A DNA stretch of 64,000 bases from Eledone cirrhosa (Eukaryota). The stretch is from assembly GCA_964016885.1 (NCBI GenBank), contig OZ024745.1:37014001-37078000 (forward strand). The letters are read 5' to 3'. Under the pieces are notes generated by a model. That model saw only the letters and a program-made list of their open reading frames with translations, did no database searches and was not told the origin of the DNA. Positions 18,928 to 63,609 of the stretch are shown here, in pieces; within the stretch, counting starts at the first letter, position 1, and every line of letters starts with the position of its first letter. Both the position numbers and the translations under genes were made by a program.

Positions 18928-19329
18928 GTAGGAGGTGAGTTTTATTGTAGTACAATAAAGCAATGCAGATATCGGATAAGAAGCACTCTACAGTTTGTAG
19001 GACTGGAGTATACATAATATAAGATCAAAAGATGGTTAAAGGAGTTCCATGTATTTTATTATGCGCATTTCAAAATATGTTGATTTAAAACTGCACTATC
19101 CACAAGTGTTTTTTAGCCTTCATATCATGTTCTCCTGTTTTATCGGATGAAAACACAAATATTATTGCATGATGATGTTTGTTTTTGAAATGCGCATAAT
19201 AAAATACATGGAACTCCTTTAACCATCTTTTGATCTTATATTATATATATATATATATATATATATATATATATATATATATATATATATATATATATAT
19301 ATATATATATATATATAGGAACCAGTAAG

Positions 19330-19423
19330 ACCCCGACAGCTGAGCTCAAGCCGTTTCGACGGCTAATTCTGGACTAAATGAAAATTTATCCTGGTATTTA
19401 AATAGCCGATCTTCTCAAGGGGT
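19330..19423 (-). ncRNA. Type I hammerhead ribozyme with a U3-A8 core at the Penelope 3' end
   Basis: ACCCC TTGAGAA GATCGGCTA...TAGCCGTC GAA ACGGCTTGAGCTCAGCTGT C^ GGGGT. Confidence 0.72.
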
Positions 19424-20533
19424 AATTCCATATATGGTCAAAGTGATTGTCAAAAATCAGTAGTAATTCTGTGGTTGCAAATTAGTAGGGGAGATGGTGG
19501 CTAAACCTGCCAGTAGGAGAAAGAGGGGAGGGGGTGGAGTAGACCCAATCAAGCGTTGGTAGTGCCAGCTACAGCTGGGCATGAGGTCAAAGAAGATACA
19601 GGGGAGGGGGAGGGGGAGGAAGTCGGAACGGTAGGTAGAACAATGGGGGGTAGAAATAGGAAAGAAAAAATACTGAGAGTGAAGAAAAGCAAATAAGTGT
19701 AAAGAAAAAAGTAAAGTAAATTAAATTCTACGACCTAGGTGTCAGGCTATTGTTAGGCGAGAATAAAATAAAGAAAGAAAGAAAGAAGTAAATAAATAAA
19801 TAAATAAATAAATAAGGAAATAAGTAAAAGAACTAGGTGGGACGAAATAGGCAAGGACCCTTTTAAGAGGTATAAGTACGTAAATGATACGGTGACGGGT
19901 CAACAAAAGGGGCCAAAATACTAAAGAGACTACCACGAAATAAACAATAAAGGTTTCCATCCCGGGCCAGCAACGGCCCAGTGCAGCAAAGTGAACTTGT
20001 ACGAGATAATAATTCTGAGTCCCGAGAAAAATATATACTAATGCTAACTCTAAAAGATCTAAAACAAGCTACATGAAAGTTCGTACGAAATAAAGGTAGA
20101 ATACGGAGAAATAAATTCAGAATCCACCCCGCCCAGAAGAAAAGCGAAGCAAGAAATACTGAAACGAAAAAATAAGGCATAAGTGCCACTAAGAAATATA
20201 GAGGGCACAGAGAATAGTGGGAGCGGTCGGAAAAAGGGGGCAAGTATCCGGGGTCTAAGCCAACTGCTATAAAGGGCGGAGTCCGCCAAATCTATCAAAT
20301 ACTAGGGGAGGGGGGTGGGGGTACTAAGGCTACATGGGGCCAAAGGGCAGCCTCGGGTGGGCGAGAAAAGACGCCGACAAAGGAGAAGAGCTGGGGTAGA
20401 AGGACAAAGGAAAGAGGGGGGGGGGGAGGAAATAAAGGAAGCGATAAAAGAATACAAAGAAGATCTTACGTCTTCCTTGGCAAGCAGGGGTTACCCATTG
20501 CAAAATCGGCAACTGGGGTGTTATAGCCCTAGT

Positions 20534-21877
20534 CTACCCCCCCGGGTCATTATGGGGTTTGAGGGCGAGGTAAGTCCTACGCAATCTATGTTTACATGCA
20601 GTAACCAGTTCATCTTTCTTGTTTAGGAGTTGGTCCGTCGAAAACAGCATTTGTAAAGTTTCCTCCGAGCATAAATTGCACGGACGGCGTCCTCCCGTGT
20701 AAGAATTGGCTCTGGACAGTAATCTCCAAGTGAGATCATAGGTGATGTTGTTGTCCTTGAGGTCCCATATGTGGCCCGAAAGTGTAGTGGCGTGACGCCG
20801 GGCCGGGTTTCGGAAGGTATGTCTATGTTGGTATAGCCGGGTCTTGAAGTCACATGCGGTAAGTCCTATATAGGCTTTGTTGGAGGTATCCGTCCTCACG
20901 TTGCACTGGTAGATCACATTACGGTCTCTGCATCTATTGTCGAGTGGGCAAATAGATCTATCCGGGCAGTTACACCTCCTGGTCGGTTCTCCACTGCTAT
21001 TTAGGTTATTTCTGCCATCGGGGTTGAGTTTTTTGTTGTTAGAGGAGACGATGTTTTGTGCGAAGTTTGGTGTAGTGCTGTAAGAGAGTTTGATGGTATT
21101 TTTGTTAATTATGTTGTGGTAGCAGTGTTGTAATGGGAAGTGTTTTTCAATGAGCCTAAAGAATAGTTTCCCGATGGGAGTAGTCACCTCTGCGTTGTGG
21201 GGAGGATTGAACCATGTTACATTGCGTGAGCGGCGGTGTCTCCTGCTGGTTCCGCTAATGGGAGCTGGACAGTAGGATATTTCCTCCCGGAAACCACTCC
21301 GCTTGAGGGCCTGGTTGTAATAAGGCGCATGTTCATCGAATATCCGCTCATTAGCTGACAAACGGGATATGCGGAGGGAGATGTTTTTGACCAGGTTGTT
21401 TGTGATGTTCCTAGGATGGTTTGTTCGGCGGTGGATGTAGTGCAGATTGTCATTAGGTTTCCTGTATGGGTAGTACAGGTCGTTTTCGAGGTCGAGGGTT
21501 ACGTCCAGGAAGTTTACTCGGGTCAGGGACGTTTGTAGGGTTATTTTAAATCCCCAGTCGCGGAAGAATCTGATTAATTGTTTCCGGACCCGATCTGTAC
21601 TACTGGGGTTGTACCCTTTAAGGGTAAGGAGCCCATCATCACGGTACAATCCACCACCGAATGCAGGAAACATATCAGTGAGTTTGGCTATTAGGAATAA
21701 TTCTATAAGATCAGTGACCTCCGCCGAATCCGTGGCGCCCATGCTGACGTCGAAGGGTGAGTCGGGAGCTCTTTTTATCCATTTAGAGTCGTCAAAGAGT
21801 AAGACTGTCTTCCTGGCGTGGAGGATGATTTTTCTTTCCTGGTCGGTGATGGGCACGAGTGTTTCGGCGAAGTCCAA
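20534..21877 (-). CDS. Penelope-like RT (C-terminal part) + GIY-YIG endonuclease, 447 aa, 5'-truncated
   Basis: VSMG and YRDD RT motifs, FLDVTL, WFNPP, CxCx5Cx5C linker ([15 protein letters not shown]), VIYQ...YIG, terminal CxxC...CxH. Confidence 0.9.
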
Positions 21878-61767: not shown

Positions 61768-63183
61768 CGTTTTCAGATAAAGAATCTTGCTAAACAAATT
61801 CAGAAACTAAATATATATATATATATATATATATATATATATATATATATAGTATGATTTACAAAAGAAACAAAAAATGGCAGAAAGTAAAAATAAATAA
61901 ACATCTTCTGTAGCTTGGGATGCTGATATACTCGCTAAACGATTTTGAAGTAATTCTGAGCTTCCCCGGCATTACTGCAGGTGATAGCGAGATCCAGGTG
62001 CTGGAACAGTGAATAGATCTCAAGGGAATCACCTGTTGCTTTGTTAAGACGAGCAAGCCGCTAAAGAAAACAACATCGTTGCCAGCGGCCCTTCGAATTT
62101 CACAGGCATGAAACAGTATTTAGCGAGTGGTAATTATTTTATCGAGATAAGAATGTTTAATTCTTTAAATGATAAACTCACCGAAACCGCACCCTGATTC
62201 TATGACACAAAACCCATAACTTGAAATTGTTAATATTTATCGAAAGATAAATTTTATTTTCTGTAAAAAAGCCTTTGTCAAGTTGTGCTTTTTAACATTA
62301 TTATATTACTATACCCCTCTAAATTATTGATTATTTTCAAAATTATTTAGAAAATTATAGGTAGTGTTTTTCGTTAGAAATATAGCAACGTAAAGTTTAA
62401 AAACTCACAAAGGGACATAACTAAAGATCTCTGGTAACTACTGTATCTGTCAAATCACCGCTCTTTCTACAATAATATAAACAACAATCGATGCAGGATT
62501 TAAACTTGGTGAGACCCTAATCTGTATAAAGCTTGGAGGACCCCGTGTCTGTTGTTTATATCAGAAAGTTACGCAAATATTGAAAATGTATATACTTTTT
62601 AATTATTGTAAGGTCTGGCGGTTTATAAAGCCTTAAGCTGTAGCTTGTTTAATTTATGCCTAAATCCGACACAGACAACAATATTAATATTGTGAATATC
62701 GAAAGACTCATCCAGTTGTAAAGGAAACGAAGTAGAAGTAAACAAAAAAGCTGACTGTTTCAAGTGAGGAGTTGTGAAGCTACTTATGTTTATGATTGTA
62801 ACCGACTCCCGCTTATAACAATTTCCCTTTGTTCACACGGAAACAGAAACAGGAGTAGGCGACGAAGGAAACGTATCATAACACTATGATTCATTATCAC
62901 AACATCTCGGAATCAAAACACACACACACACACACACACACACACACACACATATATATATATATATATATATATATATATATATATATATATATATATA
63001 TATATATCATAACTCATGTCTATAGAATCGATCAGATATTAAATATATATATATACGTTATTCCGGGTTGAATCGGAGGTAACCACAGTAAGTAAGGTAC
63101 TCAATACATTGCAGAGTATAAAGGTTTTAATATAGATGAGATTCTACAGGACTAGAACTGTTTCATTCTTTAGAAATCATCAG

Positions 63184-63232
63184 GATTCCTGATGATTTCT
63201 AAAGAATGAAACAGTTCTAGTCCTGTAGAATC
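63184..63232 (+). ncRNA. Hammerhead-like motif in a 129-bp palindrome, with a mirror copy on the minus strand
   Basis: GATTC CTGATGA TTTCT-AA-AGAAT GAA ACAG-TTCTAGTC-CTGT A^ GAATC; first stem II pair mismatched. Confidence 0.55.
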
Positions 63233-63547
63233 TCATCTATATTAAAACCTATATATATATATATATATATATAAGTTGTAATAGAATGAAAACGAAATTT
63301 CATTTCTCACTCTTAGTACGGCACTTACTTATGCTACTGTACGTCTGTATACATATATGTATGTACGTATACATACATACTTATATATATATATATATAT
63401 ATATATATATATATATATATATATATATATATATATATATATATATATATATATATATATATGTATATATTATAAGCAAACTGAACTTAAAACGATAAGT
63501 TCTTGTTTTTTTTAGATATGTCAATACTTATAAAACAACTTTTGTAT

Positions 63548-63609
63548 TTTATCTGATGAGTGCGTACCAAAATGTTGGTACCCTTGAAATATATATATAA
63601 CATAATAAA
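63548..63609 (+). ncRNA. Hammerhead-like motif, slightly degenerate
   Basis: TTTAT CTGATGA GTGC-GTACCAA-AATG-TTGGTAC-CCTT GAA ATATATATATAACAT A^ ATAAA. Confidence 0.55.

What the first reader, a model, noticed from the sequence alone, without database searches (positions are those of the whole stretch)
18928..63609. TA microsatellites host many unrelated hammerhead-bearing elements
Seen: most non-repetitive islands in or beside (TA)n tracts carry an HHR-like core, often within ~10-140 nt of the TA junction. Cores fall near 19144, 19330, 29188/29297, 30768, 48819, 51322, 52349, 54160, 55084/55550, 55966, 57156, 61399, 63189 and 63553. The flanks look unrelated, so about 8-10 families are present, and I saw none in the first 18 kb where long TA tracts are absent. 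Inference: a community of microsatellite-targeting Penelope elements and short ribozyme-bearing parasites, possibly also driving TA expansion. It would be easy to miss because these regions are masked as simple repeats.
Basis: partly seen in the sequence, partly recalled or inferred. Interest (0 to 1): 0.78.

Follow-up and report, generated by a model that had tools for sequence, protein, structure and literature searches.

The report
Penelope ribozyme elements crowd TA repeats
The TA repeats in this window border the ends of about 15 retroelement families with hammerhead-ribozyme-like motifs, namely Penelope-like retrotransposons (a known association) and non-coding tandem 'retrozymes' that show the same insertion footprint and are therefore likely carried into TA repeats by the Penelope enzyme.

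Summary
Observation confirmed. All 15 listed sites belong to hammerhead-bearing repeat families (three degenerate, five mis-placed by 30-90 nt), and four more were missed. In 80 random 10-kb genome samples, 31 of 41 insertions lie within 300 nt of (TA)8+ (permutation mean 13.5, p=0.0005); a SINE control is not enriched. This extrapolates to about 1.7e5 motifs genome-wide.

The cause is largely known. [quoted passage not shown] Published work already covers PLE hammerheads, the U3-A8 core and TA preference, including an octopus Hydra family.

Not found in print: (1) tandem retrozymes (310, 467 bp) carry the PLE footprint (TA-abutting 3' ends, head-to-head inversion, tail on one arm in 12 of 13); (2) short PLE copies start at fixed 5' sites, possibly transcription starts.

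TA expansion by the elements is unsupported. The scan earlier noted a similar footprint on tRNA-bearing tandem repeats in other genomes. Cleavage and expression are untested.

The parts
18931..19241 (+). Family A: 3' end of a Hydra-like PLE; inverted arm with tail (18931-19075) plus direct arm; core 19144 (U4G variant)
19318..21888 (-). Family B: 5'-truncated Hydra-clade PLE (ORF fragment 20534-21886, about 1.1-kb 3' UTR); U3-A8 hammerhead core at 19418, cleavage site 17 nt from TA
21888..36566 (.). 14.7-kb degenerate (TA)n array with a 200-N gap; contains only the C and second A insertions
29035..29464 (.). Family C: head-to-head truncated copy of a 310-bp tandem retrozyme; cores 29224- and 29303+
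30555..30865 (+). Family A duplicate of 18931-19241 (same junction); canonical core 30768
48771..48953 (+). Family N: degenerate hammerhead (core 48819, U4C), long helix II; one relative lies downstream of a Hydra-like ORF end
48963..51491 (+). Family D: 5'-truncated Neptune-type PLE (ORF to 49946, CA-rich 3' UTR); U3-A8 core 51322
51735..51854 (+).
52175..52460 (-). Family E: old hammerhead element, core 52432, long helix II
52504..53257 (+).
54110..54406 (-). Family F: 3' end of a Hydra-like PLE; U3-A8 core 54195
54503..55805 (+). Family G: 466/467-bp tandem retrozyme (2.4 units) with inverted arm 54503-54690; cores 55084 and 55550
55894..57314 (+). Family D second insertion: inverted arm 55894-56175 (core 55995-) and direct arm (core 57156+)
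57329..57540 (-). Family O: TA-flanked 200-nt element with a shared 5' start and no hammerhead found
60883..61118 (-). Family L: palindromic short copy; hammerhead-like fold with variant core at 61016 (position 4 is G or A, not U, in the copies shown)
61388..61519 (+). Family H: minimal hammerhead, core 61399; older coreless copy at 60565-60662
61516..61819 (.). Family H2: palindrome truncated inside its hammerhead (only the GAAA half, 61699-)
63059..63249 (.). Family I: palindrome centred just 5' of the hammerhead; cores 63189+/63183-; U.U at base of helix II; helix I covaries between subfamilies
63274..63424 (-). Family I2: 3' fragment (no core here) of a 422-bp tandem retrozyme-like family
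63517..63650 (+). Family J: degenerate copy (core 63553) of an abundant hammerhead related to A; relatives flank Hydra-like ORFs

Best explanation
The hammerhead-like motifs lie next to TA tracts because they sit 20-230 nt inside the 3' ends of Penelope-like retrotransposons and of non-coding tandem retrozymes, and those 3' ends abut (TA)n, which the Penelope endonuclease likely nicks to prime reverse transcription.

Shown: 3' ends are fixed at two family-specific sites and join TA. Many insertions are head-to-head, with a 30-90-nt tail on one arm only. B and D have intact ORFs with a hammerhead in each terminal repeat. Retrozyme arrays share this footprint and have scattered 5' ends. Short PLE copies have clustered 5' ends.

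Inferred: one RNA is copied from its outer 3' end, the cDNA folds back at its end to make the second arm, and that arm is resolved at an inner TA-like site. Retrozyme RNA (circle or multimer) is a template in trans for a Hydra or Neptune enzyme. Short copies likely come from short capped RNAs started at the promoter in the 3' terminal repeat (about 55% for this step). The ribozyme is not what targets TA: most short B copies lack its 5' half, family O has none, and inserted copies run past the cleavage site.
For: Enrichment: 31 of 41 insertions within 300 nt of TA against a permutation mean of 13.5; CA/GT 7 of 41 (p=0.12); SINE control 26 of 114 against 28.4; TA downstream of 32 and upstream of 18 of 49 hits. 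91 of 97 family-A copies picked by pattern alone reach a TA tract within 290 nt.

Structure: 11 of 17 pairs change on both sides in 14 related motifs, 0 of 500 shuffles. Helix III is palindromic in 25 of 49 real and 3 of 41 shuffled hits.

Autonomous elements: 94 and 124 scored matches at 97-99% identity, many with full 784/775-aa frames; hammerheads in both terminal repeats in 10 of 10 B loci; clade motifs match PMC8557442. Hydra-like ORF ends lie upstream of F in 13 of 20 fetched loci, and of A, J and N in single loci with no TA tract between.

Footprint: tail on exactly one arm in 23 of 24 head-to-head B pairs and 12 of 13 inverted G insertions; TA at 31 of 32 G 3' ends; the same in 3 of 3 C insertions with both 3' ends visible.

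Fixed 5' ends: B 55 of 90 pieces at +39..+49, D 10 of 17 at -43..-27, A 42 of 97 at one site, against 59 G starts at 59 different places.
Against: No RNA, cleavage or enzyme data. Single motifs do not fold better than shuffles (z -1.8 to +1.5), and the lowest-energy fold of E is not a hammerhead. Many copies carry core changes (U4C, U4G).

No sequence link ties retrozymes C or G to a particular PLE, so the partner is unidentified. No ORF link was found for E, E2, H, H2, I, K, L or O. 10 of 41 sampled insertions are over 300 nt from (TA)8+ (about 4 hits expected by chance).

The cap-G signal is weak: G in 11 of 25 non-C junctions for A (p=0.006), but several are explained by microhomology and 17 of 42 junctions show the templated C, 10 of them at a natural palindrome; no clear G excess in B or D. 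The covariation alignment was chosen from descriptor hits, so it leans towards the structure.
Confidence: 0.85

Rival explanations
1. The elements create or lengthen the TA tracts (TA tails added at insertion or carried along by read-through), so the link is a product rather than a target preference.
For: Pure TA runs within 250 nt of a hit are longer (median 30 against 24 nt; n=54 and 625; p=0.0002). The elements have TA-like sites at their own ends.
Against: 3 of 97 A copies (L304, L369, L318) end in non-TA flank with no TA tract. The 14.7-kb array has two internal insertions, and one A insertion was duplicated with its junction. Longer runs are equally explained by preference for long pure targets. 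No empty site was found among 375 blocks, so this is not directly tested.
Confidence: 0.1
2. Retrozyme arrays spread at the DNA level (unequal crossover, circular DNA, gene conversion between TA tracts) without a Penelope enzyme.
For: Units within an array are more alike than between arrays (G 3.7 against 13.1 differences; C 0.16 against 0.79). One A insertion was duplicated inside the window's TA array. The discussion of bioRxiv 10.64898/2026.07.22.740005 allows local amplification.
Against: Each dispersed array has its own 5' junction but the same two 3' ends, head-to-head arms and a one-sided tail, as in ORF-coding B. Array-specific variants and periods are shared by both arms, as expected from one template per insertion.
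Confidence: 0.08
3. The clustered 5' ends of short PLE copies are fold-back or stalling hotspots (short palindromes, RNA structure, or a 3' splice site), not transcription starts. This rivals only that one step.
For: 10 of 42 A junctions are hairpins centred on a natural 6-nt palindrome, and several G junctions have microhomology. The B and D clusters follow an AG that could be a splice acceptor; an intron end maps to helix I in Drosophila Penelope (PMC4209133).
Against: The same sites are used in junctions to TA or to unrelated flank. No shared upstream exon is attached. An extra G is seen on at least one arm of several hairpin junctions, and the starts for A and B are a purine after a pyrimidine. 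The 3' repeat of Drosophila Penelope holds a working promoter (PMC2377424).
Confidence: 0.4
4. Elements insert anywhere and merely survive better near microsatellites, or the motifs are chance matches in AT-rich DNA.
For: Shuffles give about 4 hits per 0.72 Mb, so a few hits are chance. Single folds are unremarkable.
Against: 49 real hits against a shuffled mean of 4.1; SINE and CA/GT controls are not enriched; near-identical young copies already end exactly at TA.
Confidence: 0.02

Closest known systems
Hydra-clade PLEs (Craig et al. 2021, PMC8557442; includes Hydra-1_Obim of Octopus bimaculoides)
   Same: Single ORF, reverse transcriptase then GIY-YIG-type domain; DKT, CxCx5C, CxxC and CxH motifs; hammerhead near the 3' end; (TA)n preference; partial tandems, inverted copies and a one-sided tail.
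   Different: Family B has RWR for RWK, a U3-A8 core with a long helix II, and a 3.5-kb unit with a 1.1-kb 3' UTR (published families mostly under 3 kb). Several Hydra-like families coexist, and copies of the last ~60-140 nt with a fixed start dominate.
Neptune/Nematis-type PLEs
   Same: [quoted passage not shown]
   Different: No tree was run, so Neptune and Nematis are not separated. U3-A8 minimal core; CA-rich 3' UTR.
Minimal PLE hammerheads (Cervera and de la Pena 2014, PMC4209133)
   Same: Short helix I, palindromic helix III, U3-A8 variant, many families per genome, mostly solitary or as opposite-strand pairs 100-700 bp apart, attributed to truncated PLEs.
   Different: In the parts read (1-2 of 4) TA tracts are not mentioned and counts are 2,000-9,000 per genome; here about 1.7e5 are extrapolated. 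Family L fixes a non-U base at core position 4.
Animal non-LTR retrozymes (PMC7229834; bioRxiv 10.64898/2026.07.22.740005)
   Same: Tandem units of a few hundred bp, 35-39% GC, one type-I hammerhead per unit, no ORF over 51 aa, strongly folded as circles. PLEs are proposed there as the mobilising partner.
   Different: The passages read infer the PLE link from co-occurrence and sequence kinship, not from junctions. Here arrays show TA-abutting fixed 3' ends, head-to-head inversion and a one-sided tail. Circular RNA is not shown here.
Non-autonomous Chlamys elements such as MRC1 (PMC8557442)
   Same: Non-coding, multicopy head-to-tail insertions attributed to PLEs.
   Different: Those share 3' sequence with autonomous families; C and G show no such match to the PLE ends tested.

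Membership tests
Type-I (minimal) hammerhead ribozyme | Core boxes C3/U3-UGAN-G8/A8-A, GAAA and UH in three-helix order | tested here: met
   Met in 9 strict and 15 relaxed window hits; window copies at 19144, 48819, 51783, 61016 and 63553 deviate
Type-I (minimal) hammerhead ribozyme | Helices kept by compensatory change; palindromic helix III | tested here: met
   11 of 17 pairs with two-sided change in the A/J group; palindromic helix III in 25 of 49 against 3 of 41 shuffled hits
Type-I (minimal) hammerhead ribozyme | Rfam gathering score | tested here: not met
   0 hits at gathering score; G reaches 38.6 of 52 bits on HH9
Type-I (minimal) hammerhead ribozyme | Self-cleavage | not testable with these tools
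   needs in vitro transcription
Hydra-clade PLE (family B) | DKT, RWK, CxCx5C, CxxC and CxH motifs; no GxKF, no Cx2-5CxxC | tested here: met
   against PMC8557442; RWR in place of RWK; visible likeness to the published Hydra alignment; no Pfam match
Hydra-clade PLE (family B) | Partial tandem with a hammerhead in each terminal repeat; (TA)n insertion; inverted copy with tail | tested here: met
Hydra-clade PLE (family B) | Placement in a reverse-transcriptase tree with reference Hydra proteins | not tested
   no tree was built
Neptune/Nematis-type PLE (family D) | Reverse transcriptase plus C-terminal GIY-YIG; GxKF, DKG, Cx2-5CxxC linker | tested here: met
Neptune/Nematis-type PLE (family D) | Neptune rather than Nematis by phylogeny | not tested
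   no tree was built
Non-LTR retrozyme (families C, G, I2) | Dispersed tandem units of a few hundred bp, low GC, one type-I hammerhead per unit, non-coding | tested here: met
   310, 466/467 and 422 bp; GC 0.35-0.39; longest ORF 20-51 aa; G is slightly above the 150-450 bp range quoted in PMC7229834
Non-LTR retrozyme (families C, G, I2) | Expressed as monomeric linear and circular RNA | not testable with these tools
   no RNA holder was listed
Naiad PLE | N-terminal endonuclease; no canonical hammerhead | tested here: not met
   B and D have the endonuclease-type domain at the C-terminus and carry hammerhead motifs

The most novel reading that the evidence does not exclude
In this genome TA microsatellites host over 100,000 hammerhead motifs from dozens of families, and two non-autonomous life-styles ride on Penelope enzymes: circular retrozyme RNAs that are rolled into head-to-head arrays at nicked TA tracts, and ~130-260-nt capped mini-elements that start at the promoter in the 3' terminal repeat and greatly outnumber their parents. 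The shared junction footprint would be direct genomic evidence that PLEs mobilise animal retrozymes, and the one-sided tail would record a single-template fold-back mechanism.
Probability: 0.5. Interest if true: 0.65.

Novelty: new member of a known kind. Interest (0 to 1): 0.48.

Why it matters
How animal retrozymes integrate, and how Penelope elements make their inverted, tailed insertions, are stated open questions (PMC7229834, PMC8557442). This genome offers near-identical intact Hydra and Neptune-type enzymes, retrozyme families at up to 100% identity, and thousands of junctions with one footprint, so the partner and the mechanism can be tested. It also shows that Rfam thresholds and simple-repeat masking miss a large class of repeats: roughly 56 motifs per Mb. 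The basic link between PLEs, hammerheads and TA repeats is already published, which caps the surprise.

Tried and rejected
Rfam at gathering score: nothing. E-value mode returned mostly miRNA models on TA repeats and palindromes, rejected as chance. MFE folding of 12 single motifs was uninformative.

Empty-site search over 375 blocks found only internal repeats of known elements, no true empty site.

Sequencing runs: no RNA holder listed among 6 runs. Contigs of 4 runs laid on a full B unit showed far more depth on the last ~120 nt, loose TA ends at both 3' ends and no splice-like joint, but the tool warns that depth is not copy number and the run type is unknown, so I do not count it.

The idea that U4G is a common allele or hotspot in family A was dropped: 84 of 97 unbiased copies are canonical and none is U4G. 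Fixed 5' ends do not coincide with the hammerhead cleavage sites. A spliced upstream exon on short B copies was not seen. The cap-G test was inconclusive for B and D.

The protein search with B returned 2,214 unnamed relatives at about 40% identity and no usable names. Papers PMC12602865 and PMC12910113 had nothing relevant in the passages seen. No earlier notes exist for this genome.
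Full report
OBSERVATION. The window lies in a 3.0-Gb genome. It looks like an octopod to me, from a recalled resemblance of its abundant SINE; no call tested that. Rfam finds nothing at gathering score. My type-I hammerhead descriptor (C3-G8 or U3-A8 core) gives 9 strict and 15 relaxed hits, against shuffled means of 0.37 and 1.91 in 100 shuffles. Four more sites were missed. The window holds about 15 such families. 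The copies at 19144 and 30768 are one insertion duplicated. No strict or relaxed hit lies in the first 18.3 kb.

GENOME-WIDE TEST. I drew 100 random 10-kb positions on the four largest contigs and fetched the first 80; draws covered only part of each contig's length. The combined descriptor gives 49 hits against a mean of 4.1 in 10 shuffles. Collapsed to 41 insertions, 31 lie within 300 nt of (TA)8+, where 19.6% of unmasked bases lie (within-locus permutation mean 13.5, p=0.0005). CA/GT tracts (7 of 41, p=0.12) and a SINE control (26 of 114, expected 28.4) are not enriched. The excess is about 56 per Mb, or 1.7e5 genome-wide (about 1.1-2.4e5 by bootstrap) if the sample is representative; degenerate copies are missed. 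A stricter descriptor split its 54 window and sample hits into 21 clusters, 11 of them singletons. Exact counts: 6,378 matches to a 27-mer of family A and 5,217 to the G hammerhead. For scale, PMC7229834 reports 126,247 motifs in axolotl and over 6,000 in 16 families in a coral. Structure is supported by features the descriptor did not require: palindromic helix III in 25 of 49 real and 3 of 41 shuffled hits, and two-sided change in 11 of 17 pairs across 14 A/J-type motifs (rows picked from descriptor hits). Single motifs do not fold better than shuffles.

AUTONOMOUS ELEMENTS. Family B (19318-21888, minus) has 94 scored genomic matches at 99% or more, many with a 784-aa frame and a 3,531-bp tandem period. 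All 10 loci fetched carry the hammerhead in both terminal repeats. Its motifs are those given for the Hydra clade in PMC8557442, where almost all families insert into (TA)n; that paper's supplement lists an octopus Hydra family with TA preference and a hammerhead. Family D (48963-51491 and 55894-57314) has 124 matches at 97% or more, a 775-aa frame, Pfam RVT_1 and GIY-YIG matches and Neptune/Nematis-type motifs. Hydra-like ORF ends lie upstream of family F in 13 of 20 fetched loci and of A, J and N in single loci. No ORF link was found for E, E2, H, H2, I, K, L or O. So many short islands are truncated PLE ends, as PMC4209133 proposed for solitary and opposite-strand minimal hammerheads, where U3-A8 is also described.

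RETROZYMES. C is a 310-bp unit in arrays of up to 12 listed units at 100% identity, G a 466/467-bp unit in arrays of over 20, and I2 a 422-bp unit. They are 35-39% GC, lack ORFs over 51 aa and fold well as circles (z -4.3 to -10.1). A 590-bp U3-A8 tandem also occurs in the sample. Of 19 G insertions with both ends in view, 13 are head-to-head; 12 of these have one short and one long 3' end, and 31 of 32 3' ends abut TA. The 3 C insertions with both 3' ends visible do the same. ORF-coding B shows the same rule: tail on one arm in 23 of 24 pairs. Inverted copies and a one-sided tail are the published PLE signature. G 5' ends are scattered, 59 starts at 59 places, and units are more alike within than between arrays, which fits one template per insertion but does not separate a circle from a multimer. 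PMC7229834 and bioRxiv 10.64898/2026.07.22.740005 propose PLEs as the partner from co-occurrence and kinship. My searches found no report of junction evidence or of cephalopod retrozymes; subscription papers and Repbase were not searched. No sequence tie to a particular PLE was found.

FIXED 5' ENDS. Short PLE copies start at set places: B 55 of 90 pieces at +39..+49 from the core, inside loop II, so they lack half the ribozyme; D 10 of 17 at -43..-27; A 42 of 97 at one site. Family O shares a start in 5 of 5 relatives and has no hammerhead. In A an extra G precedes the start in 6 of 8 junctions of the first set and 11 of 25 non-C junctions of the unbiased set. Copying of a cap as an extra G is recalled knowledge. 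Several of these junctions have microhomology or a natural palindrome, and B and D give no clear signal. The 3' repeat of Drosophila Penelope holds a working promoter (PMC2377424). I put the transcription-start reading at about 55%. Searches found no such account in print.

MECHANISM. Shown: positions, junctions, ORFs, enrichment. Inferred: nicking of (TA)n by the PLE endonuclease, priming at the outer 3' end, fold-back to give the second arm, and resolution at an inner TA-like site, in line with suggestions in PMC3846280 and PMC8557442; use of retrozyme RNA in trans. The ribozyme rides along and does not target: inserted copies run 17-230 nt past the cleavage site. Activity is untested, and PMC4209133 found low activity for minimal motifs.

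TA EXPANSION. Runs near hits are somewhat longer (median 30 against 24 nt), which fits either direction. Against: 3 of 97 A copies end without a TA tract, and the 14.7-kb array has two internal insertions, one a duplicate. No empty site was found. Unsupported, not excluded.

PAPERS SEEN. PMC4209133: parts 1-2 of 4. PMC8557442: abstract, passages, supplement search hits. PMC7229834: passages and Discussion. bioRxiv 10.64898/2026.07.22.740005: part 1 of 5, passages, Discussion; its supplements were not seen and may list invertebrate families. Passages only: PMC3846280, PMC2377424, PMC13282606 (31 recently active PLE families in Octopus vulgaris, no mention of ribozymes), PMC3088659, PMC8969392, PMC12602865, PMC12910113. 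Supplements of PMC4209133 and PMC7229834 were not read and may hold cephalopod entries.

VERDICT. Real and well above chance. New members of known kinds, with unusual density and two additions worth testing: the PLE footprint on retrozyme arrays and the fixed starts of short copies. Interest 0.48.

Noticed in passing
window 39925-41091 (+): 388-aa open frame with 8.5 copies of a 69-bp repeat followed by a cysteine-rich part that resembles a Helitron N-terminus (recalled); no Pfam match.
   Followed up: partly
window 59737-60330 (-): C-terminal fragment of a non-LTR retrotransposon (weak zf-RVT match, E 0.018), near (ATGT)n blocks; relatives at 73-97% in 2 of 80 random loci, not within 60 nt of TA.
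   Followed up: partly
window 60883-61118 and L288-L298: Family L keeps a hammerhead-like fold with G (or CpG-decay products) at core position 4 in most copies; families N and K often have C there. U4C is a known low-activity variant (PMC3088659); U4G was not found in that paper's text.
   Followed up: partly
L025 8241-9497; L034 33-624; L090: A 590-bp tandem family with a U3-A8 hammerhead, i.e. a retrozyme-like unit with the PLE-type core variant.
   Followed up: no
window 18931-19241 and 30555-30865; L151/L152: Two cases of one insertion duplicated inside a long TA array; in both pairs the copies differ at hammerhead position 4 and one other site. Could be gene conversion, chance or assembly error.
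   Followed up: partly
L028 (G000:C4:247488092-247498091): 10 kb of a higher-order satellite (196/197/227-bp units, about 50% GC) without a hammerhead hit.
   Followed up: no
80 random loci L021-L100: Hydra-like ORF remnants at 30-50% identity to B in about 20 loci, suggesting many more Hydra families than the one published for octopus.
   Followed up: partly
window 42900-51733: Several copies of an abundant SINE-like repeat; used as the negative control, not TA-associated.
   Followed up: yes
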